Shown: piece after piece, positions 1-54,201 of the stretch
Position numbering within the stretch: position 1 is the first letter of the stretch
Layout of the letters: each line of letters opens with the position of its first letter
Virus record (IMG/VR): IMGVR_UViG_3300049442_000069
Source: a virus
Reading direction: 5' to 3' (one strand)
DNA: 54,201 nt
The notes under the pieces: generated by a model
The model's input: the letters and a program-made list of their open reading frames with translations, nothing else
Databases searched by the model: none
What the model was told of the DNA's origin: nothing
Made by a program: the position numbers and the translations under genes

Positions 1-127
1 AAAACGACTGCGGCCTGCCAGCTCTTTGCTGGAAAAAAGCCTGCGCTTCTTTGAATCGCCTCATTTCCGAGTCGTCTCTCAGGTTGACGAATTGCTCCCA
101 TTCCCTGGGAGAAAGCGGAGGGCCGGA
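1..127. repeat. Left copy of an exact 127-bp terminal direct repeat (overlap of a circular or circularly permuted genome)
   Basis: Bases 1-127 (aaaacgactgcggcctgcc...gagggccgga) are identical to 54075-54201. The repeat lies inside a coding frame. Confidence 0.95.
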
Positions 128-3100
128 AGCATTTTCAAACTTGGTGTGCTTCTGCTGTAATTTCCGATACATCGCCTCATCGTGTTCGGCCTTAGTGATG
201 TCACCATTATCCAGTGAGCCTTTCAGTCCGGCGTCACTCATGGTTGATAGCTCCTGCATCCGGGTTTCGGGATCTACAACCAGCGGTATTTCGCGTGCGG
301 TTTTCGGCGGAGTAACCTTGTGCGCGGTGAGTTGATCTCGATCCGGTTTCTTAATCCCGATGCCTTGCTTCTCCAGGTATGCGGCACGATCCCTGAGAAC
401 CTGTTCCACCTCGGGCGGGACCAGTGGCATGGCGTTGATCTTTGCGATCGCTGCATCGGCCTGGGCCTGGCTGTAGGTCTTCGGACCAACATCTTTCTGC
501 CAGCCGTCGATCATTCTTTTGCGGCTCGCCAGTGCTTCTTCCTTGAATTGCTGCGCCAGCTTGTAGGCCTTGTTGAAATCGCCCATCGCCTTGGCGTTTA
601 TCATCTCCCTCAGTGGAGACACCGGAGGAGGCGCGGCTTTGCCGCCAGCTCTTGGCGGAACGAATGGAATTATGTCGCCGCCAGCGGTCTGGCTACCCTG
701 TTGCTGCGGCTGTTGCTGCGGGATGGACGAAAGATGCTTTGCGATCCCTGGGACCGGCGGTTGCGGAGGAGGTTTAGGCTTCTGGAACTCCAGCCCCCCC
801 GGGGGAATTGGAACTTCCCGCTCCGGCCTTGTCGGTTCTGCGGATTTTTGCGTCCAGTCCAGCTTGGTGCTTCTGCTGCTCGGATCGAATGTAGTCCCGC
901 TCGACTGCGCTTGGCTCCCAGGTGTCCCATCCTTCTCCCCAGACTCCAGATCCGCTTCGTGGGGTTTCATCCCCTTCATCAACTTCAGCTCCTCGTCGAT
1001 CTGGTGAATCTCCGCTTCGCTGACTTTCCATTCCGGCAATTTACCCGTCTGTCGGAAATGTCCAATCTCATCCTGAATGGTGAGGCCGATGGCGGTCGCG
1101 TCTCCTTCAGCCAGATCAATACGATAGCCTTTGGTTTCCCCGGGGATAGGCGCACGCACATCGCCTCCCACAAACACGCCTGGCATTTTCGTTCTACGGC
1201 TTCCGTCACCAAGGGTTTCCACGAACCCTCCCTTTTTCCCCACCTTAACCAAAGTGATACCCTTCGGGAGCCATGCCGTGTTATTCTCACCGCCCAGGAA
1301 ATTCTCAACGTGGGCAACTTTGAAGGTGTAGTCAGCCCTGGGGTTATCCTCGGAAGGACCGACATGAACTGTTCTGCTTCCATCGGGATTTGCGGTAACA
1401 TGATCTATGGTCCCGGTTACCAGTTCGACATTGCCTTTGCTGACATGATCCAGAATGCGTCGATCCTGATTGATGCTGGCCTCCGGGCCGAATTTGTGCC
1501 GGGTAACCACGGTCACTTTTTTGGTTCCCAGGTCCAATGACCCTAGGACAGCCTGCGTCACGGCATTGCTGCCGCCATACACCATGCCTTCTTTTCCGTT
1601 GGTCAGATTCTTGAACCGCTCAGTGCTTGCCCAGCCGGTATATTGAGACCCGGGGTAAGGTCTGATTGCTGGTTTTGTCCCAGGAAAAAGGGCCACCCTG
1701 CTTGCGGGAATGGTCTTTATGTTTACGAGAGCATTACCCCTTCTCTCACCGGTAATAACATGAACACTGCCATCCGGTTGGTCGATGATGTTTACGACTT
1801 CCGTGTTGGTCCGGATTTCCGCGCCACCATTTCTGGCGGTCTCGATTTTTGCGTTAAAGTAGTCTCGTCCTGTTGAACCCCGCGCTCCCCTTCCGACATT
1901 AAACAGCTCCAGGGATTCCTTTGCAGCACCACCAGCCCTGGCTCCAGCCTCTATGCCAAGAACCCTGAGTCCCTCGTAAGGAAGATGACCGAGCATCTTA
2001 GATCCGGCTGCTCCAATCCCGACTACAACAACATCGTAATTTTGCCCGGACTTCTCCCAGAGTTTGTGCTGCTCCCTGAAATTATCCCATAGAGCCTGCT
2101 GCTTATCGCCCCAGTCCTGCCTTTCCTCCCTGGTTATTCTCCTGGATTCAGACAGTTTCTCGTAGCGAAGCACCGCATTCTGCAAACCGGCTGCGTCATC
2201 CTCCAGTTGATGGAGTTGAACCTGTTCTTCAGGTTGAAGTTTGGTAGGCTCGGTTGTTTTAATTATCTTACCCGAGGCGTCCCTGCCTTCCCGCCGTTCA
2301 CCGGACAGGAGGCGTCCCAGCTCATGCGTTTTTTCCACCGGGATAGGAAGCGGGTCTTCACCACGGGCAATCCGCGCGGTGTTCTCTATTCTAAGGTCGT
2401 GCAGTTCGTCATCGAGCTGTTTGGCGCGAAGTTGCTCCGGGGTTGATGGTCCTCCTTCGGCCTTGGCCTTGTCCTCGATCGCCTTAACCAGAGCGTCTCT
2501 TTCCTGGGTCTTTAGGATCGACGGTCTTTCTCCGCGTTTGTAGATGTCGGAGATTTCCTTCTGGAGTGCCTTGAGACGGACAACATCCGTGTCGGCTTCC
2601 TTGGCTTGCTGCGGTGCGCCCTTGGCTGCTTCCTCTGCCACCTTCTTCGCTATTTTGTAAATACGATCGTCGTGAGTCAGTTGGTATTCCTGGCTTACCG
2701 CATTGGGGTCACCTTCCGGCCTGACCAGAACACCTCCGGGAACTTTCGTCATTGGCCGGTCAACAACATAGCGTCCCCCATGTGGTGCTTCAATGATGTC
2801 TCCCGGCTGCAACTGGGATGCCGCATATTCAACCTGCTGCCTGCGTTCAGTTATCGCCCTTTCGCGTTCTGGACCGATTTTGGTCTGATTGAAAATATCC
2901 TCATCCGTTGGGAATGTGATCGGAGCAGGCTCATGCCTTGGAGCAGTCCCCATGTTCTGGTCCAGTATTCTCTGCTGCTCCTCCGGGGTTTTGGCGGCAT
3001 ACATTTCCCCGATGCGTTTCTCTACGCCACCCTTGGACGATGCAGGCAGTGGCGGTAAAGCGTCAGGAGGCAGATCTCCAGCGATCTGCTTGTTGAGGTG

Positions 3101-4198
3101 ATCTATCTCTGCCTGCCGCTCCTGAATCCTTTCAGGCGGCATGTCCGGGACGTTTTTCAGCAGATCAATTTCATGCTGTGCTTCCTTAACTCGTCTTTCC
3201 CATCCGCCTATTTGCCCTGGTGTCGCTTTTGGTGCCTCGGATACCACGGGCGCGGCGTTGGGGACGGGTTCTGTGCGTGGTAGCTGCCCCCCTGCTGCCG
3301 CTCCTTGCGGCGTTCCGACAACATAATCGCTATCGCCTGGGATCGGGATTGAACCATCGGGCCGTGCTTGCTGCCCGAGTGCAGTTCCCCCGCCTTGAAC
3401 TTGTGCATCACCTGGTTGCTTGGCATAAGGTTGGACTCCTGGTATTTCCTGCGTTTGGATTGGCGGCTTCGCCAATGGCTCTGTCCCCGGCCCCGGAATT
3501 GGTGGGCCTGGAATCGGCTCCTGAAATTTTACTTCCCCGACACTGCTCTCAAAATCCGCCGGGTTAAAGATACCGGGAGGAGGCGGAACGGCTCCTGGTT
3601 TTGGAATCCCCGGTCGAGCTACGTCACCCATGGCCTTGAGTCCCGCGAGCTGCGCCAGGTCAAGAACGGTTCCTATGCCAACGTCATATCTTTCCTGGGA
3701 GCCAGCCGGAGTCTGGTCTGCTTCGTGGATCTGTTGGGCACGGTTGATAACCTGCTCCGGGAAATCCATCGACTGTCGCAATGGCGGGAACCACAGGCCC
3801 ATCCATTGCTTTATTCCTTCAGGGGTAGTAGGAGCCTGAGTTGGGATACCAGCGGATCGCGCCCACTGCTCTCCGGTCTGCGGCACCATGTTTGAGATAT
3901 ATTTCCCAACCGCCGAAGCGGTCTTCCCGAATGGCGCGGGGTAGTTACTCCAGTCCACTGGCTTGTATTGTTCCGCCGCGTTCTTCTGAGTGAACGCCAT
4001 ATATCTCTGGAACATCCCCATGGCACCATCGGTGGCGGGAGTGGAAGAAACAGGAGCGGATGGTTGAGGCTGCGCTGTTGCGGCAGGCTTGTTGCCGCCA
4101 GTGACCTGCTCCCAGGATAACGCCCCGGAACTGTCAGGCTGCTGCGGTGGAGGAGAAGACCCTCCTACCACCTCCTCGTATGAAAGACCGTCTGCCAT
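1..4198 (-). CDS. Giant multidomain virion-associated (polyvalent-type / internal) protein, N-terminal 1,399 codons. Continues across the junction into 52339..54201 (1,977 aa in total).
   Basis: Hand translation of the minus strand, with codon first bases at positions = 1 mod 3. The ATG at 4198-4196 lies 2 nt after the TAA (4203-4201) of the upstream gene, and there is no stop codon down to base 1. Base 64, which equals the Met of track ORF 52339..54138 via the repeat, is in the same frame. The ORF is absent from the track because it has no stop inside the left edge. N-terminus: MADGLSYEEVVGGSSPPPQQPDSS. Confidence 0.85.
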   Translation of the reverse strand, partial: MADGLSYEEVVGGSSPPPQQPDSSGALSWEQVTGGNKPAATAQPQPSAPVSSTPATDGAMGMFQRYMAFTQKNAAEQYKPVDWSNYPAPFGKTASAVGKYISNMVPQTGEQWARSAGIPTQAPTTPEGIKQWMGLWFPPLRQSMDFPEQVINRAQQIHEADQTPAGSQERYDVGIGTVLDLAQLAGLKAMGDVARPGIPKPGAVPPPPGIFNPADFESSVGEVKFQEPIPGPPIPGPGTEPLAKPPIQTQEIPGVQPYAKQPGDAQVQGGGTALGQQARPDGSIPIPGDSDYVVGTPQGAAAGGQLPRTEPVPNAAPVVSEAPKATPGQIGGWERRVKEAQHEIDLLKNVPDMPPERIQERQAEIDHLNKQIAGDLPPDALPPLPASSKGGVEKRIGEMYAAKTPEEQQRILDQNMGTAPRHEPAPITFPTDEDIFNQTKIGPERERAITERRQQVEYAASQLQPGDIIEAPHGGRYVVDRPMTKVPGGVLVRPEGDPNAVSQEYQLTHDDRIYKIAKKVAEEAAKGAPQQAKEADTDVVRLKALQKEISDIYKRGERPSILKTQERDALVKAIEDKAKAEGGPSTPEQLRAKQLDDELHDLRIENTARIARGEDPLPIPVEKTHELGRLLSGERREGRDASGKIIKTTEPTKLQPEEQVQLHQLEDDAAGLQNAVLRYEKLSESRRITREERQDWGDKQQALWDNFREQHKLWEKSGQNYDVVVVGIGAAGSKMLGHLPYEGLRVLGIEAGARAGGAAKESLELFNVGRGARGSTGRDYFNAKIETARNGGAEIRTNTEVVNIIDQPDGSVHVITGERRGNALVNIKTIPASRVALFPGTKPAIRPYPGSQYTGWASTERFKNLTNGKEGMVYGGSNAVTQAVLGSLDLGTKKVTVVTRHKFGPEASINQDRRILDHVSKGNVELVTGTIDHVTANPDGSRTVHVGPSEDNPRADYTFKVAHVENFLGGENNTAWLPKGITLVKVGKKGGFVETLGDGSRRTKMPGVFVGGDVRAPIPGETKGYRIDLAEGDATAIGLTIQDEIGHFRQTGKLPEWKVSEAEIHQIDEELKLMKGMKPHEADLESGEKDGTPGSQAQSSGTTFDPSSRSTKLDWTQKSAEPTRPEREVPIPPGGLEFQKPKPPPQPPVPGIAKHLSSIPQQQPQQQGSQTAGGDIIPFVPPRAGGKAAPPPVSPLREMINAKAMGDFNKAYKLAQQFKEEALASRKRMIDGWQKDVGPKTYSQAQADAAIAKINAMPLVPPEVEQVLRDRAAYLEKQGIGIKKPDRDQLTAHKVTPPKTAREIPLVVDPETRMQELSTMSDAGLKGSLDNGDITKAEHDEAMYRKLQQKHTKFENASGPPLSPREWEQFVNLRDDSEMRRFKEAQAFFQQRAGRPQSF
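1049..2044 (-). other. FAD/NAD(P)-binding pyridine-nucleotide oxidoreductase domain (thioredoxin-reductase-like, no CxxC) inside the giant ORF
   Basis: Hand-translated motifs, in order: NYDVVVVGIGAAGSKMLG (GxGxxG), VLGIEAGARAGG, MVYGGSNAVTQAVLGSLDLGTKKVTVVTR (second dinucleotide-binding motif) and TKMPGVFVGGDV (GD motif). This is the order seen in two-Rossmann TrxR-type flavoproteins. There is no cysteine in the domain. Confidence 0.7.
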
Positions 4199-4200: not shown

Positions 4201-5181
4201 TTACGGTGGGACAAATTGTGTTCCCGTCCAGCGCAGATCACCCTGGTCCGTTTGATAAACCACACCGGCCTGCATCTGCTGCTTCGTCGTTGGCAGCGGT
4301 TGCGTTTGGTAGGTTCCCTTATCCACCGATGGCAGGGACGATACTCTGTCCTGGATTTGCTGGTATCTCCTGGCCTGATCGGTCAGCCATTGCGAGGAAA
4401 TTATTCGCGGCTTCCCAACGGGCTTGCCGTTCACATACTGCTGGATTTGCTTCATCCCCGTGGATGGTGCTTCCGGCTTGGGGTAACCAGGCACTCCCAG
4501 TCTCTGTTGCCAGGTCAGACCTGCCTTCTGCTCGTCTGTCAGTTCCCCGGGAACATCCGGGTATAATTCCGGATGCAGCACAGGGTTGGTGTCAGTGTTC
4601 TGAATGTTGCCCCAAAGCTGGCTGCTAACACCATGCTGCCAGGCCTTGGTGTCGGACTCGATTCCTCTCCTGGCATTGATAACAGCGTTCTGTTGCAGCC
4701 GCGCCTTGTTATTCCTGGCCTGAGTGTAGAACGAAGGCGGAGCATACTGGTAATCAGGGTTTCCGAGGATGTTGTCGATCTTCGACATGTAATCAGGGTC
4801 GAGTGGATTCGCGTCGAGGCTGGCGAAGTCCCTGGAAATTCCAGAAACGCTGTCCTGCATCTTTTTTCTGTCACCCACTTTTTCATCGAAGATGTCCTGC
4901 TTTAACTGGAGCGCACCTTCCCTCAAGCCCACGCCTTGCTGCATCCCATAAAGCTTCATCTCGTTCAGCTTGTCCTTCATCGCGCTGTCTGCTTCGATCT
5001 GGGCGTTCTTCTGCTGCAACGCCTGCATTTTGCCTTCAAACTCCTGCTGCTTCAGCTTGAGTCCGGTGGACAAAGCCCATGCATTAAGGAACGTCTCCGC
5101 CGGATTCCCGAGGGCGATGTTCTTGTAGGGGATCTGATTGGCGTCAGCCTGTGCTGCTGTTAGTCCTGATGCGTCTGCCAT
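4201..5181 (-). CDS. Hypothetical virion protein (candidate internal/ejection protein), cysteine-free, Q-rich
   Basis: Track ORF of 326 aa. It is tightly packed between minus-strand structural genes and is followed 2 nt later by the giant ORF start. No recognisable motif. Confidence 0.7.
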   Translation of the reverse strand: MADASGLTAAQADANQIPYKNIALGNPAETFLNAWALSTGLKLKQQEFEGKMQALQQKNAQIEADSAMKDKLNEMKLYGMQQGVGLREGALQLKQDIFDEKVGDRKKMQDSVSGISRDFASLDANPLDPDYMSKIDNILGNPDYQYAPPSFYTQARNNKARLQQNAVINARRGIESDTKAWQHGVSSQLWGNIQNTDTNPVLHPELYPDVPGELTDEQKAGLTWQQRLGVPGYPKPEAPSTGMKQIQQYVNGKPVGKPRIISSQWLTDQARRYQQIQDRVSSLPSVDKGTYQTQPLPTTKQQMQAGVVYQTDQGDLRWTGTQFVPP

Positions 5182-5186
5182 AATGT

Positions 5187-6113
5187 TTATCCTTGGTTGA
5201 AGTGCAGGTTGCCTCCGAGGAGATTAGAGAACGACCCTATCAGGCCCGGGTATTGCGATGAAGGATTAACTGCCGGGCCGTAACCACCAGCGGGAATCGC
5301 TGCGGGATAACCGCTCTCTCCATAGACAGGCCGTGATGCTCCAGCGGCTGCGTAGTTCGCGCTGAGTGCGCCCATGTCGGAACCCGAGGGACCGCCCTGC
5401 GCTGAAGAAGCGAAGTAGTTTGGCGCGACTCCGCCGCCACCACCGCCTTTCCCTGCACCAAGGTAGGCACCAATCAGATTGATGATGGTGTCACTGATTC
5501 CTTTTGCCACGGGGTTGGGAGCAGCTCTTTGGTTTTCCGCGCGTTGCTCAGTCTGCTGCCTGTAAAGATTGTTCTGCATGGTCATGGCAGCCTGCTCCTG
5601 TGGCGAGATAAAGAACGACGCAGGATTCATGTTCAACTGACTGGCCATCGACGCCCATGTCTGTGCAGCGTTCTGCCCGGCCTGACCGGTTGCTATTCCC
5701 TTGTTAATCATGTCCAGGGATGTGAGACCGAGATTCCTCGCCTGGTTCGCGGTCCCCATCGCGCCACCCCACAAACCGGAACCGAGATTCTGGAACGCAG
5801 TGCTTCTGGTAACCTGGTCAACGACATCCTGCGGGATTTGTCCGGCCAGCTCCTCGGCGGAAAGGCTCTGCAACGTCTTGGTGAGATCGCCGCCACGCGC
5901 GAGAATATCGCTAAACCCGGGGATGGAGCGGTTCATCATCCCCAGCATGTAATCGTAATACTCGCCACCCAGAGACTTGATCCACGGCATTGCCGCCAGA
6001 TCTTCCTTGAGAGCCTTTATCTGCTCATCACCAAGGTTGGTTGGAGTGTAGGGAATGATGTCCGGGGTTGATCCGAACACCTCTGAAAGAACCGGTATGT
6101 TGTCTGATGGCAT
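5187..6113 (-). CDS. Hypothetical virion protein with a Gly-rich C-terminal half (GKGGGGGG), cysteine-free
   Basis: Track ORF of 308 aa, with 5-nt and 3-nt gaps to its neighbours in the same operon. Confidence 0.7.
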   Translation of the reverse strand: MPSDNIPVLSEVFGSTPDIIPYTPTNLGDEQIKALKEDLAAMPWIKSLGGEYYDYMLGMMNRSIPGFSDILARGGDLTKTLQSLSAEELAGQIPQDVVDQVTRSTAFQNLGSGLWGGAMGTANQARNLGLTSLDMINKGIATGQAGQNAAQTWASMASQLNMNPASFFISPQEQAAMTMQNNLYRQQTEQRAENQRAAPNPVAKGISDTIINLIGAYLGAGKGGGGGGVAPNYFASSAQGGPSGSDMGALSANYAAAGASRPVYGESGYPAAIPAGGYGPAVNPSSQYPGLIGSFSNLLGGNLHFNQG

Positions 6114-6116
6114 GGT

Positions 6117-7520
6117 TTATAGGCTCCCGAATGTGCCCACATCTCCAAGGCTGAATCCCTCAGTCTGGATGTGAACAGTGTGACGGATTCCTCCGAGGTA
6201 AGCCCGGAGTTCTTTATCCAGTATGTCGAGTGCTGCCTGCTGGTTGACCGACGCATTCTGCCAGTCTTCCTTCTCCTCCAGGAACTTGGCGGTCACCATC
6301 AGTCGAATGGCCTCGTAATTCTTGATCGTCATTATGTCGCTGGGTTCCTTCAAGATCCATCTGATCTTCACCGCGAGCGTGATAGTTGACCCATTGCAGC
6401 AGTCGGCAATCAACCTGTATTTCCGGCGCGGATGGCTGAACCCAGGCTGGAGTTTGTCGCCCTGGTCGATCAGCATCGAGCCGCAAGGAGAACACCCCGG
6501 GCCATTGTCCAGATGCTGGAAGAACTGACTCCGGATCGGAATGGGGCGACCGTTCAAATTGATTCCCAGGACCGCTTCGACACTCAGCGGCATATAGATG
6601 ACGCCGCCCACCACGGTAGCCTGGATTGTTTGCACGCAATCTTTCCAGATTCCGCGCTCCATCAGCCTTCGTTCTGACTGTTGAACGTGCCATGTGAGAT
6701 CTCTCTTGGCGGTGTGCAACGCCTGCGGGAGATCCAATGCGATCTGCGCCCTCATCCAGCCGAGGGAATCCTGCGGGAATTTCTGGATGTCGAGAAGGTA
6801 ATTGCTTTTCCGCAGCGCGAAGTTGCGCGGGTCGAGCATGTGCTTCTTCACTTCCTGCTGCAACATCTCCAGTCCGGTCTGGCGGTATTGCTGGCCATCG
6901 GCCACCGCGTTGTTCTCGTAACGCTCGATCGACAGAATGATGCACTTGATGGCTTCGACGTTCTGAACAATGAGGTAGTCCTCATCGTTGGTGACGGGGA
7001 GGTAACGCCGCGCTCCGGCGCAGTTCACGGTGGCGTTCCCAGGCTCAAGCCCGGGGTAATAATAGACCCTTCTCAGATCCGATGCGTCGTTGGGATTGGC
7101 GACCAAGCCGAGATCAATCAGTGGGTTGTCCATCTGTTGCTCCGGCTCCAGGTAAGTCGAGCTGCTGGTGATTTCATACCAGCTCTGAGTGACGTCCTTG
7201 CTGCCATACACCTTGACGTCAGCCGAGGCTGCGGGATGCGCCTCAATGATGTTCTCCATCTGCGGCGGCAGAATGAGAAACTTCGGGAACTCAGTGATCG
7301 GAGTGATGTTGGCCGCAATCATTCCTCCCACGGGGATCATGGCATCGAGAATAATCTTGGTGGCCTCGTTGAGACGCACCATCACCCGTGGATCGTCAGC
7401 GCAGACACCATTGTCCACTACGCCGCAGATCATGGGAGCAACGTCTTTGAATTGCAGGCCGCCAACGATCACCGGGGGAGGAGGAAAGGTGATGTCCGAA
7501 ATGTCAGGGATGTCGATCAT
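6117..7520 (-). CDS. Hypothetical tail/adaptor-type structural protein
   Basis: Track ORF 6117..7550 begins with TTG. The in-frame ATG at 7520 forms an ATGA overlap with the stop (7519-7517) of the upstream gene, so that start is preferred. Cys-rich, unlike its downstream neighbours. Confidence 0.65.
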   Translation of the reverse strand: MIDIPDISDITFPPPPVIVGGLQFKDVAPMICGVVDNGVCADDPRVMVRLNEATKIILDAMIPVGGMIAANITPITEFPKFLILPPQMENIIEAHPAASADVKVYGSKDVTQSWYEITSSSTYLEPEQQMDNPLIDLGLVANPNDASDLRRVYYYPGLEPGNATVNCAGARRYLPVTNDEDYLIVQNVEAIKCIILSIERYENNAVADGQQYRQTGLEMLQQEVKKHMLDPRNFALRKSNYLLDIQKFPQDSLGWMRAQIALDLPQALHTAKRDLTWHVQQSERRLMERGIWKDCVQTIQATVVGGVIYMPLSVEAVLGINLNGRPIPIRSQFFQHLDNGPGCSPCGSMLIDQGDKLQPGFSHPRRKYRLIADCCNGSTITLAVKIRWILKEPSDIMTIKNYEAIRLMVTAKFLEEKEDWQNASVNQQAALDILDKELRAYLGGIRHTVHIQTEGFSLGDVGTFGSL

Positions 7521-8350
7521 GCTGTGCTGTATCCTACGAAGATTATCCAACCAAGGGCGATGAAAGGAGGCAGTGTGGTCACTGCTTCGATGGGAGGATC
7601 TGTGTCCGGGGTTCTCCCCTTGTCAGCCGGAATCAACAGGTGATTTGGCGGGTCGTTAGGCTCCGGAGTTCCCGAGTCCGGCCCGGTGACAATTTTCTTG
7701 GGAAGCCCATACATCTGGCCCTGGTCATCCCGCGCGTTGGCATTCGCGGTCCATCGCCCCACCCACAGATCACTGCTGGGATTACGAAACGTGTTGGCCT
7801 CAGTCGCGGTCACTTCAAACTTCCCACCGGTCTTCTGGTCGGTTGGGTTCTTCGCGGTGTCGATGAACGCCTGCCAGCCGTTGTCGTAGTCGGTGTGGCT
7901 GTTGGATTTGTTCATGTGTGCGCCCATGAGAAACTTGTCGGAATAGTCCGGCCTTCCGTCTTTTCCGTTGCACAGTCCCCAGCCGTCGTAGTTGCCGGTC
8001 ACATTCCCCAGGCCCGTGGAGTCGAAGTCAGAGTGAGGATCGTTGTCGTGATACCCCGGGGCACCGGAGTAACCTCGGATCTCTCCCAGCATTCCGTTGT
8101 AAACTCTGCGCCATTTGTTGTGGTAGAACACCTTGATGTTCACAGGGCGTCCCTGGGCGTCCTTCTCAAACCACACCTTGTCCTGATCCTGGACGTCCGG
8201 GGTTCCATTGCGAAGAACGACACTCAGGTAGGAGTCCTGGATCGTGGAGCTGACCAGTCGATTAGCCAGCGCGAAAAGTTGCTGAAGATTCAGTGGCGAT
8301 TCGCCCGGATCGGGCATCGCAAATTCAGTGAGAATGTCTGGCGGATTCAT
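7517..8350 (-). CDS. Phage tail-collar-domain fibre/spike protein
   Basis: Track ORF 7517..8383 has a TTG start. The ATG at 8350 (MNPPDILTEF) is preferred. Motifs MLGEIRGYSG and GWGLCNGKDGRPDYSDKFLMG resemble the tail-collar signature (GEIR...GW.lCdG..GtPDlrgrF). Confidence 0.55.
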   Translation of the reverse strand: MNPPDILTEFAMPDPGESPLNLQQLFALANRLVSSTIQDSYLSVVLRNGTPDVQDQDKVWFEKDAQGRPVNIKVFYHNKWRRVYNGMLGEIRGYSGAPGYHDNDPHSDFDSTGLGNVTGNYDGWGLCNGKDGRPDYSDKFLMGAHMNKSNSHTDYDNGWQAFIDTAKNPTDQKTGGKFEVTATEANTFRNPSSDLWVGRWTANANARDDQGQMYGLPKKIVTGPDSGTPEPNDPPNHLLIPADKGRTPDTDPPIEAVTTLPPFIALGWIIFVGYSTA

Positions 8351-13568: not shown

Positions 13569-13570
13569 AG

Positions 13571-17368: not shown

Positions 17369-17600
17369 TTCTCTCTTTAACAACTTCCCAGGTTCGGAGG
17401 CCAGACAATCCGAACACCAGCACGGCCAGGGCACGTTGAAATTCGTAGAGGTATTTGAACTCGTTCTGCGGCAGGGCTTCTTTCAGCCAGCCCGGATAAG
17501 CCAAAGCAAAAAGCTGAATCACCATGATGAGAATTGGCATGAACAGGAACATCAGCACCGCTCCCCAGTTGAGAAAATGTTTCCATGGTTCTTCCTTCAT
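17319..17600 (-). CDS. Two-TM membrane protein (holin-like), 93 aa
   Basis: In-frame ATG at 17600 within track ORF 17319..17738 ([35 protein letters not shown]...[12 protein letters not shown]). It forms an ATGA overlap with the stop of the collagen-like gene. Confidence 0.55.
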
Positions 17601-27773: not shown

Positions 27774-27776
27774 GTG

Positions 27777-34292: not shown

Positions 34293-34449
34293 ATATCGGT
34301 GTTACTTCTTTGCTGCTTTCTGACAGCTTGTTGGTTATGATTGTTATTGCCGATTGCGTGAACTCGCAGAGCATGATTTTTAGATCAGTTTCGCTTGTTC
34401 CTTTGTAGCCTTCGGCGGCTTCGTCTATTAACTGGCTGAGTGTTTGCAT
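34279..34449 (-). CDS. Hypothetical small protein (56 aa)
   Basis: Track ORF 34279..34491. The ATG at 34449 (MQTLSQLIDEAAEGYK) starts 2 nt after the stop of the upstream ORF and avoids a 40-nt overlap. Confidence 0.45.
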   Translation of the reverse strand: MQTLSQLIDEAAEGYKGTSETDLKIMLCEFTQSAITIITNKLSESSKEVTPIYVNK

Positions 34450-34451
34450 TG

Positions 34452-35274: not shown

Positions 35275-35277
35275 TAC

Positions 35278-50731: not shown

Positions 50732-52339
50732 TTATCCTGAGTAAACGGGACGTTTCCCTTTCCCGCGTGAACCTTTCGGTTCGGTGCTTGGCTTGTAGTA
50801 ATGCGCTCCGAGCATTGCTGGAATCATAACAAAGACAGCATTCCTGAGTGACCTTAGCACCTTGGCGTTGAACTCCTCTGGAACCCCGGTCTGATCGGCC
50901 ATGCTCTTGGAGAATTCATGGATGCCTTCCTCTGTGAAGATTGGGCCGAGTTCAGCGGTAACAAACTCCGCCCAGTGATAGAAGTCATTGGGTGCGTTCC
51001 CGAATGGAGCCGGAACATCGGTGCCTCCAAAGCCATAACCTTTCATCATTGTGCCCACGAAGTTGATGAACGGATGCACTTTCCCCAGGGCATAGTTTCC
51101 AAAGATGGTGGGAGCCTGCTTTGGATTCATTGCCATTCTCACCACGGTTCGGATCATCGACGTCTCGCCGCCGGTAGGATTGAGGATGCTTCCGTCCGGT
51201 GCTTTGATAGATGCCCAGTCCGGGGAATCGAAATCACCCACGTTCACGTTCTCGTCGCTGCCAAAGAAGTGCTTGAGCAACATCTGATTCAATAACAGGA
51301 TGGAACTTCCCACTGCGGCTATGCGAATCCACTGCCGGACATTGTAACCCGCGATGTAACGCGCCTCCGGGCTGGCATCCGACCACACCTTTCTGAGTGT
51401 GTCGCCAATCACGGGCAACTTATTCAGGTTATGTCGGGCCAGGATCTGAGATGACTGAAGCAGATCGACAGGCCGCATCACACGCGCGACATCCAGGGAG
51501 GGAGCGAACTCAATACCCCGGGCAGCCTTGCCGAATTTTCCAGAGAGAGCCAGTGCCGCAGAAGGACCAGGCGCACCAGTCATGTGATTCACATAAGTTG
51601 ACGCCCTTTTCCGCAGCTCATCCGTCTTCAGATGCTCCGGTGCGCCATCCATGACAGCATCCCAGCCGAAACCCCGGAGTTCTTTCAGCCCCAGGAAGCT
51701 GTGACTGAGCATTCGTCCTATCTTCCCGAAGAATCCTGCCCGGTGCTGAACGTCATCGTAGATCTTGCGCGGATCGGCAGCCAGACCGCTGGTGATTTTC
51801 TCGTCAAACCTGGGGTCGAGCATGATGCGCTGACCAATGGCGCGAGCCTGGGATTCACTCATCGACTTGATGGAGTCCACCCATGTCTTCCCGAAGCCCT
51901 TCCACATCACAGGGTCGAAAGCATACGGCCATGCGTGAGTGCCGTGCAGTGCCGTGGAGTGACCGAAGACCTTGAGGGAATACGGAGCCTGGTAAGCACC
52001 AGTGAAGAATCTGTTGAGTGGCGACTTCTCGGTGCCTGCCACGAAATCCCTGGCCTGACGCAGCATCTGCTGCCTGTTGCGGTCAGCCAGTAGAAGGTTT
52101 TTACTCCGGGGTTTCACCGCCTTTGGTGTCGCCAGCACCTTTGCCACCTCCTCCGGGACCATGCGAACCCCGGTCCTTTTGTAGATGTCATCCGAAAGCC
52201 TGGTGGTTAGCTCCTTGAAATCCGGGTAGCCATATCTTCCCGGCTGCTTCAGGTATTTCTCCTTGGCGTAATCCCAGAGTTCCTTGGCATCCCTGATGGT
52301 ATAACAAGGCGAGACTGAGATGCTTGGGACGGTAGGCAT
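50732..52339 (-). CDS. Hypothetical large virion protein (candidate internal protein)
   Basis: Track ORF of 535 aa. Its ATG overlaps the TAA of the giant ORF (TAATG). Confidence 0.65.
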   Translation of the reverse strand: MPTVPSISVSPCYTIRDAKELWDYAKEKYLKQPGRYGYPDFKELTTRLSDDIYKRTGVRMVPEEVAKVLATPKAVKPRSKNLLLADRNRQQMLRQARDFVAGTEKSPLNRFFTGAYQAPYSLKVFGHSTALHGTHAWPYAFDPVMWKGFGKTWVDSIKSMSESQARAIGQRIMLDPRFDEKITSGLAADPRKIYDDVQHRAGFFGKIGRMLSHSFLGLKELRGFGWDAVMDGAPEHLKTDELRKRASTYVNHMTGAPGPSAALALSGKFGKAARGIEFAPSLDVARVMRPVDLLQSSQILARHNLNKLPVIGDTLRKVWSDASPEARYIAGYNVRQWIRIAAVGSSILLLNQMLLKHFFGSDENVNVGDFDSPDWASIKAPDGSILNPTGGETSMIRTVVRMAMNPKQAPTIFGNYALGKVHPFINFVGTMMKGYGFGGTDVPAPFGNAPNDFYHWAEFVTAELGPIFTEEGIHEFSKSMADQTGVPEEFNAKVLRSLRNAVFVMIPAMLGAHYYKPSTEPKGSRGKGKRPVYSG

Positions 52340-54201
52340 TAGCAGGGCTTTCTCTTTTTGCTGATTCCCTTGGTGGCAGTGTCGATGGTGGCCGGACCCT
52401 TGCGGTCAGTCTTAATCCTGCCCAGCTCATTGTCGATCGAATTATACAGCTCGGCGGTATCCTTCATGTATTGCGACTGGGCCTTGGTGGTCTTATCGGC
52501 AATCTGCCTGGCTTCAGCTTCTTCAGGCACCATTGATTCCCGGCCTCTTATCTCCCTGAATCGACGCATAAGCCCGGTGAAGGATGACGCCGTGCGCGGG
52601 TCAATGGGTGCAGATCCATCGAGAGTCTTCAGGGTGTCCCGGGCCACGGCATCCATGGGACGATAAGCATTGGTGAAATCCTCCTCTGCTCTCTGAGCTG
52701 CGTTGAATTTCCTTTCCAGATCCGCATCATGCGGGTGCTTCATCAGCGCATCACCGGCCTCATTAGTGGCTGCCTGTAGGTCGTCCAGATGTGCCCGGGC
52801 CTTCCCCATGTCAGCGGCAGTCACCTTCCCGGTCTTGTGAAAATTATCGACCACACCCTTGATGTCGCCTCCTGCGGCCAGCCATTCCCTGCCTTGGGTC
52901 AGGGATTCGTGCCACCCGATTGGTGGACGTCGCGGCTCAGTTTCCACGGTGGGAACCGGCTCTTTGGCAGCAACAGCTCTGGTGGTTGGCGACAGAGCCT
53001 CGACCATACGCGAAGGAGTCATGTCTCCTTTGAGGATCATGTCGCGCATCTGAGGGTCCATGTCCCAATGCTTTGCACGATCCGCCAGGCTGCGGAGTTC
53101 AGCCAGCTTATGGGCTACATCGGCCTGATTTTCGACATTGACTCCTAATGCCCGGGCTTTTTCCGGGTGCCGTGCCGCGCCAGCCACGGAACTGATGTGC
53201 TGGTTCAACTCTCTCTGAAGTGCGCTGGCTCTTTTCCCCGCGTCGGCCATGGCTTGCATGGCTGTGTCATCGGATGACAGCAGATCGAGCTGATGTGAGT
53301 GCGGATGACCGCCCAGATTAGCCCGGACACCCCGGATCAAATTGCCGACTGACTGGCCGCTTTCTCCACCAAGGGCGGCCTTTATCCCAACGCGCTGAAG
53401 CCCTTCATTGCCTGGGGCTGCTTCTGCGATCGCTTGAGCCTGCGCGTCGGATATGCGGCCAGACTGGTGTAGTCCAAAGAGCGATTCGCCGCTTCCTCGC
53501 GCGATTGAGAATCCGGCTTTGCCAGTTCCCCGCGCCAGAAGTCCTCTGGACTCGGCTGCTTGCTGCGTGATCCCTGAATTCCTGAAGTAGTTTGCATAAT
53601 CTGCTACGCTCCCCTGGTTGTCTCTGATGTTTAGTTCCGCGTCAAGCCGCGCTGCCTGCCGCGCGTCGAATCCGTTCACCTCGCGGTGGATCTGCGAAGG
53701 GATGGTTTTCTCTCCGGTGCGCTTTGCCAGATCGAACCTGTGCCGTCCGGAAATCAGCTCCAGCTTTCCATTGCGACGCTCCCAGAGCTGCACGGGAGGA
53801 GTTCCAACTCTCTCGTATTTTCCAGCCAGTGGTTCCACCACGCCCTGCTCGTTTGCCCCGGACTTAAACTGGGGCACATCCTTGCTCAAGGAGATCTTGT
53901 TCAGGGGAACCTCTGAGATCGGATAGCCGGTGGCGTGAGTGGCAGTGTCCGGCGGAGCTGGAAGTGCCAGCCGTGGTTTCAGTTTAATGAACTCGCCCTC
54001 GATGTCCGGGGGATTAAGATCCCTGCCAGGAAAAGGATGACCGCGATTCGCTTCATCGAGCATGTCCGGAACTGAAAACGACTGCGGCCTGCCAGCTCTT
54101 TGCTGGAAAAAAGCCTGCGCTTCTTTGAATCGCCTCATTTCCGAGTCGTCTCTCAGGTTGACGAATTGCTCCCATTCCCTGGGAGAAAGCGGAGGGCCGG
54201 A
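52339..54201 (-). CDS. C-terminal part of the 1,977-aa giant ORF (the last 127 nt duplicate 1-127)
   Basis: Track ORF 52339..54138 (599 aa). The frame stays open above the listed Met up to 54201 and continues at base 4198 downwards on the circle. Confidence 0.85.
   Translation of the reverse strand, partial: SGPPLSPREWEQFVNLRDDSEMRRFKEAQAFFQQRAGRPQSFSVPDMLDEANRGHPFPGRDLNPPDIEGEFIKLKPRLALPAPPDTATHATGYPISEVPLNKISLSKDVPQFKSGANEQGVVEPLAGKYERVGTPPVQLWERRNGKLELISGRHRFDLAKRTGEKTIPSQIHREVNGFDARQAARLDAELNIRDNQGSVADYANYFRNSGITQQAAESRGLLARGTGKAGFSIARGSGESLFGLHQSGRISDAQAQAIAEAAPGNEGLQRVGIKAALGGESGQSVGNLIRGVRANLGGHPHSHQLDLLSSDDTAMQAMADAGKRASALQRELNQHISSVAGAARHPEKARALGVNVENQADVAHKLAELRSLADRAKHWDMDPQMRDMILKGDMTPSRMVEALSPTTRAVAAKEPVPTVETEPRRPPIGWHESLTQGREWLAAGGDIKGVVDNFHKTGKVTAADMGKARAHLDDLQAATNEAGDALMKHPHDADLERKFNAAQRAEEDFTNAYRPMDAVARDTLKTLDGSAPIDPRTASSFTGLMRRFREIRGRESMVPEEAEARQIADKTTKAQSQYMKDTAELYNSIDNELGRIKTDRKGPATIDTATKGISKKRKPC
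53614..53922 (-). other. ParB/sulfiredoxin-like (ParBc) domain inside the giant ORF
   Basis: YPISEVPLNKISLSKDVPQFKSG...PPVQLWERRNGKLELISGRHRFDLAKRTGEKTIPSQIH. This is the ParB N-terminal-domain pattern, with a GxxR/ISGRHR box followed by a helix. Confidence 0.6.
54075..54201. repeat. Right copy of the exact 127-bp terminal direct repeat
   Basis: Identical to 1-127, read directly from the sequence. Unique genome length is therefore 54,074 bp. Confidence 0.95.

What the first reader, a model, noticed from the sequence alone, without database searches (positions are those of the whole stretch)
1049..2044. TrxR-like FAD/NAD(P) oxidoreductase domain without CxxC embedded in a giant virion protein
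Residues ~719-1050 of the giant ORF carry four motifs in the canonical order: NYDVVVVGIGAAG (GxGxxG), VLGIEAGARAGG, a second nucleotide-binding motif MVYGGSNAVTQAVLGSLDLGTKKVTVVTR, and TKMPGVFVGGDV. This is the layout of thioredoxin-reductase-type two-Rossmann flavoproteins. The domain contains no cysteine, so it cannot be a disulfide reductase. It resembles the CxxC-less TrxR-like ferredoxin/flavodoxin-NADP reductases or a flavin oxidase. I know of no described role for a redox flavoenzyme fused inside a presumed packaged or ejected phage protein. If it is delivered with the DNA, it could act on host NAD(P)(H) pools, on signalling or defence nucleotides, or on envelope redox chemistry. All of that is speculation.
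Basis: partly seen in the sequence, partly recalled or inferred. Interest (0 to 1): 0.85.

Follow-up and report, generated by a model that had tools for sequence, protein, structure and literature searches.

The report
Flavoenzyme domain inside giant phage protein
A soil-type phage carries, in the middle of a 1,977-residue multi-domain protein that is probably packed in the virus particle and shot into the host with the DNA, a genuine thioredoxin-reductase-fold flavoprotein domain that has lost its catalytic cysteines; redox enzymes have not been described as cargo of such proteins.

Summary
Window 1019-2086 (- strand, residues ~705-1060) encodes a low-Mr thioredoxin-reductase-fold, two-Rossmann flavoprotein domain. 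It scores 45 bits against Pfam Pyr_redox_2 (cut-off 26.1). A family profile hits solved TrxRs at E 1e-13. The AlphaFold model (pLDDT 89.5) matches TrxRs in Foldseek at E 8e-23, TM up to 0.75. All FAD motifs are intact. The CxxC is replaced by W...T, and the NAD(P)H motif is only semi-canonical (GGSNAV).

The window is a complete 54,074-bp genome with a 127-bp terminal repeat, and the ORF wraps around it (1,977 aa). It lies at the end of the late operon and reads as modules on Pro-rich linkers: TrxR-like, a ~310-aa ParB/Srx-like module, then a C-terminal module. Hundreds of 1,000-4,800-aa giants share the ParB-like module. One relative carries LPD38 above Pfam's cut-off; others have sub-threshold ART-PolyVal, or precomputed RadC and GGDEF hits. 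These are Iyer-Aravind "polyvalent protein" domains.

About a dozen related metagenomic giants carry the TrxR-like domain, and it is under purifying selection. Cysteine loss is protein-wide: one Cys, the last residue. Packaging, FAD binding and the electron acceptor are all inferred. I classify it as a new cargo domain in a known kind of protein.

The parts
1..4198 (-). Giant ORF, first part (aa 1-1399). ATG at 4198-4196, 2 nt after the stop of the upstream gene. It runs off the left end of the window.
   Evidence: Translation; start context; wrap-around shown.
52339..54201 (-). Giant ORF, second part (aa 1358-1977 plus stop at 52339-52341). The first 127 nt duplicate window 1-127.
   Evidence: The contiguous ORF is seen in the near-identical IMG/VR contig (L001/L002).
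1..127 (.). Direct terminal repeat, identical to 54075-54201. It marks a complete 54,074-bp genome that is circularly permuted or terminally redundant.
1019..2086 (-). TrxR-fold flavoprotein domain (aa 705-1060).
   Evidence: Pfam Pyr_redox_2 45 bits; AF2 pLDDT 89.5; Foldseek TrxR E 8e-23; 22 synonymous versus 1 non-synonymous codon differences to the sister genome.
2003..2041 (-). FAD-binding beta-alpha-beta with GxGxxG (NYDVVVVGIGAAG, aa 720-732).
   Evidence: Both Gly (G23, G25) are invariant across the family.
1931..1966 (-). End of beta2 (acidic E749) and the GG pyrophosphate-contact motif (RVLGIEAGARAG, aa 745-756; the second Gly, G757, lies just past this stretch).
   Evidence: The GG is conserved in phage and cellular members.
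1601..1642 (-). Helix that carries the CxxC in TrxR. Here it reads YTGWASTERFKNLT (aa 853-866): Trp856 aligns with E. coli Cys135 and Thr859 with Cys138. 'AGW' is conserved in the type-A relatives (the window itself has TGW).
   Evidence: HMMER alignment to 1tdf; family alignments; AF2 helix at model residues 155-162.
1499..1585 (-). Second Rossmann beta-alpha-beta (MVYGGSNAVTQAVLGSLDLGTKKVTVVTR, aa 872-900). The glycine motif is GGSNAV where relatives have GAGNSA or GGANSV. An invariant Arg900 follows beta2.
   Evidence: AF2 strands and helix E166-170 / H174-185 / E190-195 at pLDDT 89-96.
1295..1318 (-). Family-specific motif VAHVENFL (aa 961-968), in the position of TrxR 'FVAIGH..PNT'.
   Evidence: It was used as a specific probe that recovered only giant-ORF relatives.
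1157..1192 (-). C-terminal FAD motif TKMPGVFVGGDV (aa 1003-1014), with the conserved GD Asp.
1028..1039 (-). Conserved LPEW (aa 1054-1057) after the long C-terminal helix of the domain. The Trp is present in every giant-borne copy, including the divergent type-B ones.
599..838 (-). Pro/Gln-rich linker (aa 1121-1200) between the TrxR-like domain and the downstream modules.
3239..3601 (-). Pro-rich linker (aa 200-320) in the N-terminal part. The N-terminal ~100-600 aa are hypervariable between sister genomes.
52993..53973 (-). Conserved ~310-aa module (aa 1434-1760) with a ParB/Srx-like core (...ELISGRHRFDLAKRTGEKTIP...). It is shared with hundreds of giant proteins.
   Evidence: 603 hits at E<=1e-30; conservation; ParB_N hits in 8 of 16 members, best E 1.2e-3; precomputed PF02195 in two relatives; phrog_3264 E 0.008.
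52342..52920 (-). C-terminal helical module (aa 1785-1977), shared with P0001, P0004, P0007, P0031 and the L006 giant. It ends in the protein's only Cys (codon 52342-52344).
4204..7550 (-). Three syntenic upstream genes (477, 308 and 326 aa), conserved in front of the giant in relatives. The two nearest also have zero Cys. They are candidate co-ejected proteins (inference).
   Evidence: Synteny in L003, L004 and L006; Cys counts; no family hits.
50735..52405 (-). Downstream 557-aa gene, the last of the minus-strand late block. A 538-aa counterpart follows the giant in L006.
   Evidence: no family hits.

Best explanation
The segment encodes a real, selectively maintained flavoprotein domain with the low-Mr thioredoxin-reductase fold. 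It has an FAD-binding Rossmann domain interrupted by a second, NAD(P)H-type Rossmann domain.

The domain is one module of a 1,977-aa phage-type polyvalent protein built as globular modules on Pro-rich linkers: a variable N-terminal region, the TrxR-like domain, a ParB/Srx-like module, and a C-terminal helical module ending in the single Cys. The gene closes the late/structural operon of a complete ~54-kb phage genome.

The most likely mechanism has three steps:
1. The protein is packed into the capsid and threaded into the host with the DNA.
2. The TrxR-like module carries FAD and takes a hydride from NAD(P)H.
3. The internal dithiol relay of TrxR is gone (Cys135 to Trp, Cys138 to Thr). The reduced flavin therefore passes electrons directly to an external acceptor, such as a small redox protein, a quinone, metal or flavin, O2, or a low-molecular-weight disulfide.

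On this reading it acts as a catalytic early-infection effector rather than as a thioredoxin reductase.

Shown here: the fold, the motif content, purifying selection, recurrence of the fusion, and the family and gene context of the giant. Inferred: FAD occupancy, NAD(P)H use, packaging and ejection, and the acceptor.
For: Fold and family:
- Pfam Pyr_redox_2 above the gathering cut-off, full length, and independently in relatives P0090, the L006 giant, P0007 and P0031.
- Profile against PDB: E 1.3e-13.
- AF2 pLDDT 89.5. Foldseek hits to TrxRs at E 8e-23. TM is 0.72-0.75 to FR-state TrxRs (5mh4, labelled 'FR conformation'; 1f6m) against 0.52 to 5mjk, labelled 'FO conformation'. That is the state in which the nicotinamide site faces the flavin.

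Cofactor motifs:
- GxGxxG, GG, the Asn of 'ENxPG', xTG and GGD are all retained in the window protein and its type-A relatives.
- The second beta-alpha-beta is predicted with high confidence, and the Arg after its beta2 is invariant.

Selection: 22 synonymous versus 1 non-synonymous codon differences to the sister genome across the domain.

Recurrence: the same domain is embedded in giants P0004, P0007, P0010, P0031 and P0090, in the L006 giant and in L087-L089. Divergent versions occur in P0001 and P0003.

Polyvalent/ejected context:
- The ~310-aa module is shared with more than 600 giants. Relative P0009 carries LPD38 (115.6 bits, cut-off 27). P0008 has an ART-PolyVal hit below the cut-off (28.3 against 31.2). 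P0003 carries a GHKL ATPase. P0184 and P0196 carry precomputed RadC and GGDEF hits.
- LPD38 is listed as phage-type-only in PMC5512222.
- Modules shuffle among giants.
- The gene lies at the end of a block with a TerL-like gene and tail fibres.
- In cultured Vibrio phage 1.211.A the homologous giant sits between head-completion and tailspike genes.
- Cys depletion is extreme: 1 in 1,977 against 1.0% in the rest of the proteome, Poisson P ~5e-8. Most of the 150 relatives have zero Cys.
Against: - No experimental evidence exists for FAD binding, catalysis or virion location. No cultured relative carries the TrxR-like domain.
- The NAD(P)H glycine motif in this protein is degenerate (G-G-S-N-A-V instead of GxGxxA/G). 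Of the TrxR HRRxxxR 2'-phosphate triad only one Arg is kept, so the electron donor is uncertain. The best profile match in PDB, T. acidophilum TrxR (3cty), is from memory a poor NAD(P)H user.
- Sister giants P0001 and P0003 carry a type-B version in which the GD Asp is Thr or Ser. In part of the family cofactor binding may therefore be dispensable.
- None of the Pfam signature domains of polyvalent proteins is found in this protein itself.
- A few enzyme copies per infected cell could not shift bulk NAD(P)H pools (my estimate), so a specific target is needed and none is identified.
Confidence: 0.55

Rival explanations
1. Cofactor-binding but non-catalytic module. The TrxR fold is kept as a stable globular 'bead', a redox or NAD(P)H sensor, or a plug or spacer in the ejection apparatus. 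It has no electron-transfer role.
For: - Loss of CxxC, a degenerate second glycine motif and loss of most 2'-phosphate ligands.
- Type-B copies in P0001 and P0003 have lost the GD Asp yet keep the domain at the same position.
- The neighbouring non-enzymatic linker and C-terminal regions show equally low non-synonymous change. Purifying selection is therefore not specific to catalysis.
Against: - Every FAD-contact motif is retained over 39-51% identical type-A relatives. That is unusual for a pure scaffold.
- Family-specific invariant polar motifs (VAHVENFL, AEGDA, E..S..Q after the second Rossmann) suggest a conserved site.
- Other modules recruited into such giants are overwhelmingly enzymes (PMC5512222 abstract).
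Confidence: 0.2
2. The giant protein is not packaged or ejected. It acts inside the infected cell late in infection, for example in assembly, anti-defence or redox support of phage metabolism. The flavoenzyme works there.
For: - Virion location is inferred only from gene order and family resemblance.
- The protein has no MuF, portal-binding or peptidoglycan-hydrolase domain and no Pfam polyvalent signature of its own.
Against: - Extreme Cys avoidance is shared by hundreds of relatives and by the two adjacent small genes. That is hard to explain for a purely cytoplasmic enzyme.
- The gene has a conserved position at the distal end of the structural block in four relatives and in cultured podophages.
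- One relative carries LPD38, described as exclusive to phage polyvalent proteins, and another has a sub-threshold ART-PolyVal hit.
Confidence: 0.12
3. It is still a thiol/disulfide enzyme. Either it uses the single, conserved C-terminal Cys (...RKPC; ...EVCG in relatives) as a mobile redox partner, like the C-terminal tail of high-Mr TrxR or the single Cys of CoA-disulfide reductase. Or it reduces a disulfide directly at the flavin, as proposed for YpdA/Bdr. A possible use is to release a disulfide tether formed in the virion, or to reduce a host target.
For: - The only Cys in 1,977 residues is the last one.
- A near-terminal single Cys is found in P0001, P0003, P0004, P0007, P0031 and the L006 giant, all of them TrxR-bearing. 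It occurs in only about 1 of 142 non-TrxR giants.
- YpdA/Bdr gives a precedent for a TrxR-fold disulfide reductase with no Cys near FAD.
Against: - The correlation is confounded by descent, because the Cys belongs to a C-terminal module that these proteins share.
- TrxR-bearing P0010 and P0090 have a different C-terminus and no Cys at all.
- The Cys is about 900 residues from the domain.
- No geometry was tested.
Confidence: 0.1
4. Chance motif resemblance or an annotation artefact: not a real domain, or not a real ORF.
For: None found.
Against: - Significant profile, structure and fold matches.
- The ORF is conserved in length and order in independent contigs.
- Codon-level purifying selection.
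Confidence: 0.01

Closest known systems
Low-Mr thioredoxin reductase (E. coli TrxB 1tde/1f6m; T. acidophilum 3cty; S. aureus 4gcm)
   Same: Same fold and domain order, with an FAD domain split by an NAD(P)H domain. It has the same FAD motifs (GxGxxG, GG, GD). These are the best sequence, profile and fold matches. The model resembles the FR state.
   Different: - No CxxC: W and T sit on the same helix.
- Only one Arg of HRRxxxR is kept.
- NCBIfam TRX_reduct scores 28.7 bits against a cut-off of 343.
- About 20% identity.
- Extra family motifs (AGW, VAHVENFL, LPxW).
- It is embedded in a 1,977-aa protein instead of being a free ~320-aa homodimer.
TrxR-like ferredoxin/flavodoxin-NADP+ reductases (B. 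subtilis YumC 3lzw, C. tepidum 3ab1, B. cereus FNR1/2, R. palustris 5ygq) and IruO (5twb)
   Same: TrxR fold without the redox-active disulfide, where the flavin passes electrons to an external acceptor. All appear among the Foldseek hits at E ~1e-19.
   Different: - Lower TM (0.46-0.55) and weaker, partly partial profile matches (E ~1e-8) than true TrxRs.
- Whether the conserved C-terminal LPxW plays the role of the flavin-stacking C-terminal aromatic residue of these FNRs could not be checked, because no coordinates were available.
CxxC-less TrxR-like proteins fused to a response-regulator receiver domain (P0151-P0153, uncharacterised, metagenomic)
   Same: These are the best cellular matches to the family profile (E 4e-15). 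They also lack CxxC and share the GGANSA-type second glycine motif.
   Different: They are cellular, ~550 aa, with a receiver domain. Identity is 27-29%. Their function is unknown, so they give no mechanistic lead.
YpdA/Bdr bacillithiol-disulfide reductase
   Same: A TrxR-related FAD/NADPH enzyme reported to work without a redox-active Cys at the flavin. It shows that Cys-less members can still reduce disulfides.
   Different: It is a separate clade and a tetramer. It was not among the top matches here, and bacillithiol is restricted to some phyla.
Phage-type polyvalent proteins (Iyer et al. 2017, PMC5512222), e.g. P1 DarB/DdrB; the 2,715-aa 'N-6 adenine methylase' of Vibrio phage 1.211.A
   Same: - Giant multi-module proteins in late or virion gene blocks, with shuffled enzymatic modules on linkers and a ParB/Srx-type module.
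- Relatives of the window protein include one with LPD38 above the Pfam cut-off, one with a sub-threshold ART-PolyVal hit, one with a GHKL ATPase, and two with precomputed RadC and GGDEF hits.
   Different: - The 2017 paper (131 domains by its abstract) never mentions thioredoxin, FAD, flavin or oxidoreductase.
- This protein has no Pfam DdrB-ParB, MPTase, methylase or helicase hit of its own.
- The ParB-like assignment of its module is sub-threshold.
Ejected giant enzymes of podophages (N4 vRNAP; T7 gp16 transglycosylase)
   Same: A very large protein encoded next to two smaller candidate ejection proteins, carrying an enzyme into the host. This is my own knowledge plus the abstracts listed.
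   Different: No sequence relationship was found. The enzymatic activities (RNA polymerase, muramidase) have obvious early-infection roles, whereas a flavin oxidoreductase has none described.
Stand-alone TrxR-fold proteins of Lactococcus phages 949/WRP3 (phrog_6397, mislabelled 'RNR alpha subunit')
   Same: These are the only viral proteins in BFVD with this fold (E 3e-19). The PHROG profile hits the window domain at E 1.8e-13.
   Different: They are free-standing 300-500-aa proteins in nucleotide-metabolism contexts, not part of a giant late protein.

Membership tests
Two-dinucleotide-binding-domain flavoproteins, low-Mr TrxR-like branch (Pfam PF07992 Pyr_redox_2) | Full-length match to the family profile above the curated cut-off | tested here: met
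   45.2 bits against GA 26.1, profile positions 1-281 of 291. Relatives score 26-66 bits.
Two-dinucleotide-binding-domain flavoproteins, low-Mr TrxR-like branch (Pfam PF07992 Pyr_redox_2) | N-terminal FAD beta-alpha-beta with GxGxxG, the GG motif and the C-terminal GD motif | tested here: met
   GIGAAG, AGG and GGD are all present and conserved in type-A relatives.
Two-dinucleotide-binding-domain flavoproteins, low-Mr TrxR-like branch (Pfam PF07992 Pyr_redox_2) | Second Rossmann domain with a GxGxxG/A NAD(P)H motif | tested here: inconclusive
   The fold is present at high pLDDT. The motif is GGSNAV here, GAGNSA in P0010, P0090, P0031 and the L006 giant, and GGANSV in P0004 and P0007.
Two-dinucleotide-binding-domain flavoproteins, low-Mr TrxR-like branch (Pfam PF07992 Pyr_redox_2) | Three-dimensional fold | tested here: met
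   AF2 pLDDT 89.5, pTM 0.86. Foldseek E 8e-23, TM up to 0.75 (query-normalised) and 0.85 (target-normalised) to TrxRs.
Two-dinucleotide-binding-domain flavoproteins, low-Mr TrxR-like branch (Pfam PF07992 Pyr_redox_2) | Bound FAD and NAD(P)H-dependent flavin reduction | not testable with these tools
   Needs purified protein.
Thioredoxin-disulfide reductase proper (EC 1.8.1.9; NCBIfam TIGR01292) | Redox-active CxxC in the NADPH domain | tested here: not met
   Cys135 and Cys138 align to Trp856 and Thr859. There is no Cys in the domain.
Thioredoxin-disulfide reductase proper (EC 1.8.1.9; NCBIfam TIGR01292) | Equivalog-level profile score | tested here: not met
   28.7 bits against a cut-off of 343.45.
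Thioredoxin-disulfide reductase proper (EC 1.8.1.9; NCBIfam TIGR01292) | HRRxxxR NADPH 2'-phosphate motif | tested here: not met
   TRHKFGP aligns to HRRDGFR, and only the first Arg is kept.
TrxR-like ferredoxin/flavodoxin-NADP+ reductase (YumC type) | TrxR fold lacking the CxxC | tested here: met
TrxR-like ferredoxin/flavodoxin-NADP+ reductase (YumC type) | C-terminal extension with an aromatic residue stacking on the flavin | tested here: inconclusive
   A conserved C-terminal helix plus LPxW is present in all copies.
TrxR-like ferredoxin/flavodoxin-NADP+ reductase (YumC type) | Closer to FNR-type members than to TrxRs | tested here: not met
   FNRs score TM 0.46-0.55 and profile E ~1e-8 (partial). 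TrxRs score TM 0.72-0.75 and E 1e-13.
Phage-type polyvalent proteins (Iyer et al. 2017) | Large protein combining two or more unrelated globular or enzymatic domains | tested here: met
   TrxR-like domain, ~310-aa ParB/Srx-like module and C-terminal module, separated by Pro-rich linkers. The sister giant adds a GHKL ATPase and an HExxH motif.
Phage-type polyvalent proteins (Iyer et al. 2017) | Encoded among late or virion structural genes | tested here: met
   It is on the same strand as, and downstream of, a TerL-like gene, virion-protein-like genes and tail fibres. Synteny is conserved. A cultured-phage analogue lies in the structural block.
Phage-type polyvalent proteins (Iyer et al. 2017) | Carries signature domains of the class (LPDs, ART-PolyVal, DdrB-ParB, MPTase, methylase-helicase) | tested here: inconclusive
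   None is detected in this protein itself. Among relatives sharing its conserved module, LPD38 scores 115.6 bits (above cut-off) and ART-PolyVal 28.3 bits (below the 31.2 cut-off). RadC and GGDEF appear as precomputed hits.
Phage-type polyvalent proteins (Iyer et al. 2017) | Packaged in the virion and delivered to the host with the DNA | not testable with these tools
   Only indirect evidence: the context and the extreme Cys avoidance.
ParB/Srx superfamily (for the aa 1434-1760 module) | Significant match to ParB_N or a solved ParB/Srx structure, with the conserved Arg motif | tested here: inconclusive
   - The GRHR motif is invariant.
- ParB_N: E 0.17 for this protein. It hits 8 of 16 relatives, best E 1.2e-3.
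- PF02195 is precomputed in two relatives.
- PDB Noc and sulfiredoxin: only E 0.25-0.6.

The most novel reading that the evidence does not exclude
A clade of ~54-kb phages injects a working flavin oxidoreductase into the host as part of its ejected giant protein. This would be the first redox 'warhead' among virion-delivered effectors. In the boldest version it teams with the protein's single C-terminal cysteine, a mobile tail analogous to the C-terminal redox centre of high-Mr TrxR. It then performs a specific thiol or redox reaction at the moment of entry. Examples are releasing a disulfide tether of the ejectosome, or switching off a redox- or NAD(P)-dependent host defence.
Probability: 0.12. 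Interest if true: 0.85.

Novelty: new variant of a known kind. Interest (0 to 1): 0.62.

Why it matters
Virion-delivered giant (polyvalent) proteins are thought to carry the first enzymatic activities a phage deploys in a cell. The catalogued activities act on proteins, nucleic acids, nucleotides or the cell wall.

A conserved, selectively maintained FAD/NAD(P)H-type oxidoreductase module would add redox chemistry to that repertoire. It would point to an unrecognised early-infection step, such as a redox-sensitive defence, a redox protein partner, or the chemistry of ejectosome release.

It is directly testable, because the domain is a compact ~360-aa unit with a confident model and about a dozen natural variants.

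The protein-wide avoidance of cysteine in hundreds of these giants is a simple, general sequence signature. It may help to recognise ejected proteins in uncultured phages.

If the domain proves inactive, it is instead an example of an enzyme fold being reused as a structural bead.

Tried and rejected
- Word-indexed homology search with the domain alone found nothing. The exhaustive HMMER search was needed.
- Single-sequence AlphaFold failed (pLDDT 35). The alignment-based run succeeded.
- GenBank phages: there was no DNA or protein match to the first 1,399 aa or to the first 25 kb. The 889-aa late protein also had no match.
- The GTDB genome scan with the family profile returned only ordinary cellular TrxRs at 23-32% identity over near-full-length matches, plus a few short fragment hits at ~40%. 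There is no prophage copy, so no host assignment.
- PADLOC defence models: no hit for the giant or its neighbours.
- Pfam and PHROGs gave nothing for most late genes, including the three syntenic upstream genes. I could not name a portal or major capsid gene. The terminase assignment rests on one weak tblastn hit.
- No tRNAs. The promoter and terminator scans were at background.
- The Pfam DdrB-ParB family was expected for the conserved module but was not hit. Only ParB_N appeared, at sub-threshold scores.
- I considered bulk NAD(P)H depletion as the function and rejected it on stoichiometry: a few copies per cell against a large, rapidly regenerated pool. This is my estimate, not computed.
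- I considered a simple circular junction placing the 620-aa right-end ORF in another frame. The 127-bp terminal repeat resolved this.
- Model coordinates are not exposed. Distances from Trp856 and Trp1057 to the flavin site could not be measured.

Full report
**What is at the coordinates**

On the minus strand an open frame starts at ATG 4198, two bases after the stop of the upstream gene, and runs without a stop to position 2. The four quoted motifs are present in the stated order, and I verified their coordinates. The domain contains no cysteine.

**Is it more than a motif resemblance?**

Yes, on every test.
- Pfam Pyr_redox_2 matches over profile positions 1-281 of 291 at 45.2 bits, against a gathering cut-off of 26.1.
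- phmmer against all PDB sequences ranks low-Mr thioredoxin reductases first.
- I aligned the domain with five homologues found later (alignment A1). A profile of that alignment hits T. acidophilum TrxR (3cty) at E 1.3e-13 over its full length, followed by dozens of TrxRs, AhpF and TrxR-like FNRs.
- Against 5.8 billion proteins the same profile's best hits are proteins named 'thioredoxin reductase (NADPH)', at E 4e-15.
- Single-sequence AlphaFold failed. With a 12-sequence alignment the model reached pLDDT 89.5 and pTM 0.86.
- Foldseek against PDB gave only TrxR-family structures at the top (E 7.9e-23).
- TM-scores split cleanly by conformation. They are 0.72-0.75 to FR-state TrxRs (5mh4, labelled FR; 1f6m) and ~0.52-0.55 to FO-state ones (5mjk, labelled FO). 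The model is therefore in the state where the pyridine-nucleotide site faces the flavin.
- In the viral structure library only two stand-alone lactococcal phage proteins share the fold.

**Anatomy of the domain**

The FAD motifs are intact and conserved in relatives:
- GxGxxG (GIGAAG)
- the acidic end of beta2
- GG
- the Asn of 'ENxPG'
- xTG
- GGD

The helix that carries Cys135-x-x-Cys138 in E. coli TrxR is retained (AF2 helix at model residues 155-162). It reads W-A-S-T, and the motif AGW is conserved in the relatives (the window has TGW).

The second Rossmann unit is confidently folded. Its glycine motif is GGSNAV here, GAGNSA in four relatives and GGANSV in two. Of the TrxR HRRxxxR 2'-phosphate motif only one Arg, which is invariant, is kept.

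Family-specific invariant motifs are VAHVENFL..NT, P.E...RI..AEGDA and a terminal G.LP.W.

It therefore fails the defining tests for a true thioredoxin reductase. It has no CxxC, and it scores 28.7 bits against TIGR01292, whose cut-off is 343. It is nonetheless a bona fide member of the TrxR-like flavoprotein fold.

The window begins and ends with the same 127 bases. It is therefore a complete 54,074-bp genome, circularly permuted or terminally redundant. The giant ORF runs through position 1 and continues from 54074 down to a stop at 52339-52341, giving 1,977 aa in total.

A near-identical IMG/VR genome (IMGVR_UViG_3300046461_000068, 54.5 kb) carries the ORF contiguously, at 2,015 aa. Comparing the two:
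- The TrxR-like codons differ at 22 synonymous and 1 non-synonymous positions.
- Residues 331-704 differ at 44 synonymous and 88 non-synonymous positions, plus indels.

The flavoprotein module is under purifying selection, while the N-terminal part is hypervariable.

**What the giant protein is**

An exhaustive HMMER search of 1.84 billion cluster representatives with residues 690-1889 gave 1,276 hits, 603 of them at E<=1e-30. They fall into two classes.

*Class 1: the conserved module.* Residues ~1434-1760 form a highly conserved ~310-aa module (LS.DVPQFK...EvISGRHR.DLA.R.GE.TIP...DAELNIRD). It is present in hundreds of proteins of 1,000-4,800 aa.
- The module looks ParB/Srx-like, but only at sub-threshold level.
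- Relatives that carry it include one with LPD38 at 115.6 bits, one with ART-PolyVal at 28.3 bits (just under its cut-off), one with a GHKL ATPase, and two with precomputed RadC and GGDEF hits. Apart from the GHKL ATPase, these are domains discussed for 'polyvalent proteins' by Iyer et al. 2017 (PMC5512222). That paper lists LPD38 and DdrB-ParB as phage-type only.
- Modules shuffle between giants.
- In cultured phages the module occurs in Vibrio phages 1.211.A/B, 1.183.O and D478 and in Shewanella podophage X14. In 1.211.A it lies in a 2,715-aa 'N-6 adenine methylase' encoded between head-completion genes and tailspikes.

*Class 2: the TrxR-like domain itself.* With its flanks it recurs at 39-51% identity in giants P0004, P0007, P0010, P0031 and P0090. 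It also occurs in a second 54.8-kb IMG/VR genome (L006), where the giant is 2,254 aa. That giant has the order TrxR-like, ParB-like, GHKL ATPase, HExxH motif, C-terminal module. Three further metagenome contigs carry the domain as well. P0001 and P0003, otherwise the closest overall relatives, carry a very divergent 'type B' TrxR-like domain at the same place, in which the GD Asp is Thr or Ser.

The gene order of three upstream genes (~480, ~310 and ~330 aa), the giant and then a ~550-aa gene is conserved.

In the window the giant ends the minus-strand late block. That block contains a weak TerL-like gene, virion-protein-like genes and collagen-like tail fibres.

**Cysteine avoidance**

The giant has a single Cys in 1,977 residues, and it is the last residue. 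The rest of the phage's predicted proteome has 1.0% Cys, so the Poisson probability is ~5e-8. The two genes immediately upstream also have none. Most of the 150 best relatives have zero Cys.

The Cys-less state of the TrxR-like module is thus part of a protein-wide constraint. I interpret this as fitting a protein that is stored in the virion and threaded through the envelope. That interpretation is an inference, by analogy with other translocated proteins, and was not tested.

The best cellular matches (receiver-domain-fused TrxR-likes P0151-153) also lack the CxxC. The domain may therefore have been captured already Cys-less.

A near-terminal single Cys (..EVCG..KPC) is found in six TrxR-bearing giants and in almost no others. 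It belongs to a shared C-terminal module, so descent confounds the correlation.

**Mechanism**

Best-supported reading (confidence ~0.55): an FAD-loaded, NAD(P)H-type oxidoreductase module of a virion-delivered polyvalent protein. It passes electrons from the flavin directly to an external acceptor. The acceptor is unknown.

A few copies per cell could not shift bulk pyridine-nucleotide pools (my estimate), so a specific target is more likely.

Rivals:
- a non-catalytic bead or sensor (0.2)
- a late cytoplasmic protein that is not ejected (0.12)
- a thiol/disulfide enzyme using the terminal Cys, or direct flavin-to-disulfide transfer as proposed for YpdA/Bdr (0.1)
- an artefact (0.01 or less)

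**Novelty**

The 2017 polyvalent-protein paper never mentions thioredoxin, FAD, flavin or oxidoreductase. The later NAD+/ADPr survey by the same group does not mention thioredoxin reductase. Full-text searches pairing polyvalent or ejected phage proteins with TrxR or FAD oxidoreductases found nothing.

The container (a polyvalent giant protein) is a known kind. The redox cargo appears to be new. No cultured phage and no bacterial genome in the scanned collections carries the fusion, so everything functional remains inference.

**Verdict**

I classify it as a new variant of a known kind, with interest 0.62.

Noticed in passing
window 1-127 and 54075-54201: Exact 127-bp direct terminal repeat. 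The window is a complete ~54,074-bp phage genome. The 'giant ORF' at the left end and the 620-aa ORF at the right end are one 1,977-aa gene.
   Followed up: yes
giant ORF (window 1-4198 and 52342-54201, - strand); relatives P0001-P0150: Extreme cysteine avoidance. The window giant has 1 Cys in 1,977 aa, against 1.0% in the rest of the proteome. Most of the 150 relatives (up to 4,800 aa) have zero Cys. The two genes just upstream (4204-5181, 5190-6113) and the gene at 10327-12249 also have none.
   Followed up: partly
window 52342-52344 (last codon of the giant): The only Cys is the C-terminal residue (...KKRKPC). TrxR-bearing relatives end in ...REVCG, ...KEVCG, ...KEICGV or ...KEVC. It could be a redox tail or a covalent tether, but the pattern is confounded by shared ancestry of the C-terminal module.
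   Followed up: partly
window 52993-53973 (- strand), aa 1434-1760: Very conserved ~310-aa module with an invariant GRHR, weakly ParB/Srx-like. It is shared by more than 600 giant proteins, including 'DNA methylase' giants of cultured Vibrio and Shewanella podophages. It appears to be an undescribed or poorly modelled family, with no Pfam hit above threshold.
   Followed up: partly
window ~2100-3900 (- strand), aa ~100-700 of the giant, compared with L001: The N-terminal third is hypervariable between two otherwise 97-99% identical genomes: 57-87% nucleotide identity, indels, and 88 non-synonymous versus 44 synonymous codon changes in aa 331-704. This suggests diversifying selection or recombination.
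   Followed up: partly
P0001 aa ~640-1056; P0003 aa ~467-870: Sister giants carry a second, very divergent 'type B' TrxR-like domain at the same position. It has large insertions and the GD Asp replaced by Thr or Ser. It may be a decaying or repurposed copy.
   Followed up: partly
L006 8375-15139 (IMGVR_UViG_3300045119_000359): A related 2,254-aa giant adds a GHKL (HATPase_c) ATPase at aa ~1400-1540 and an HEITH zincin-like motif at aa ~1900, between the ParB-like module and the C-terminal module.
   Followed up: partly
window 17600-19096 (- strand): A 499-aa tail-fibre protein with collagen-like repeats (many PHROG tail-fibre hits, best E 2e-60). ORF 12231-13706 has a weak T7 tail-fibre N-terminal hit and a 'head decoration' PHROG hit.
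   Followed up: no
window 33549-34301 (- strand) and 34300-36000: An AAA_5/MoxR-like ATPase opens the minus-strand block. Transcription diverges around 34.3-36 kb toward a plus-strand replication block (exonuclease 41430-42392, primase/helicase 45156-47135, methyltransferase 48476-50206). AT skew flips sign there.
   Followed up: no
whole window: Most late proteins (for example the 889-aa ORF at 25110-27776 and the 641-aa ORF at 10327-12249) have no Pfam, PHROG or GenBank-phage match. There are no tRNAs. The phage lineage is essentially undescribed, and its host is unknown.
   Followed up: partly
phrog_6397; BFVD E0YIZ6, A0A0D3MT87: The PHROG family and the lactococcal phage proteins annotated 'ribonucleotide reductase large/alpha subunit' have a TrxR fold. 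The label looks like a mis-annotation.
   Followed up: no
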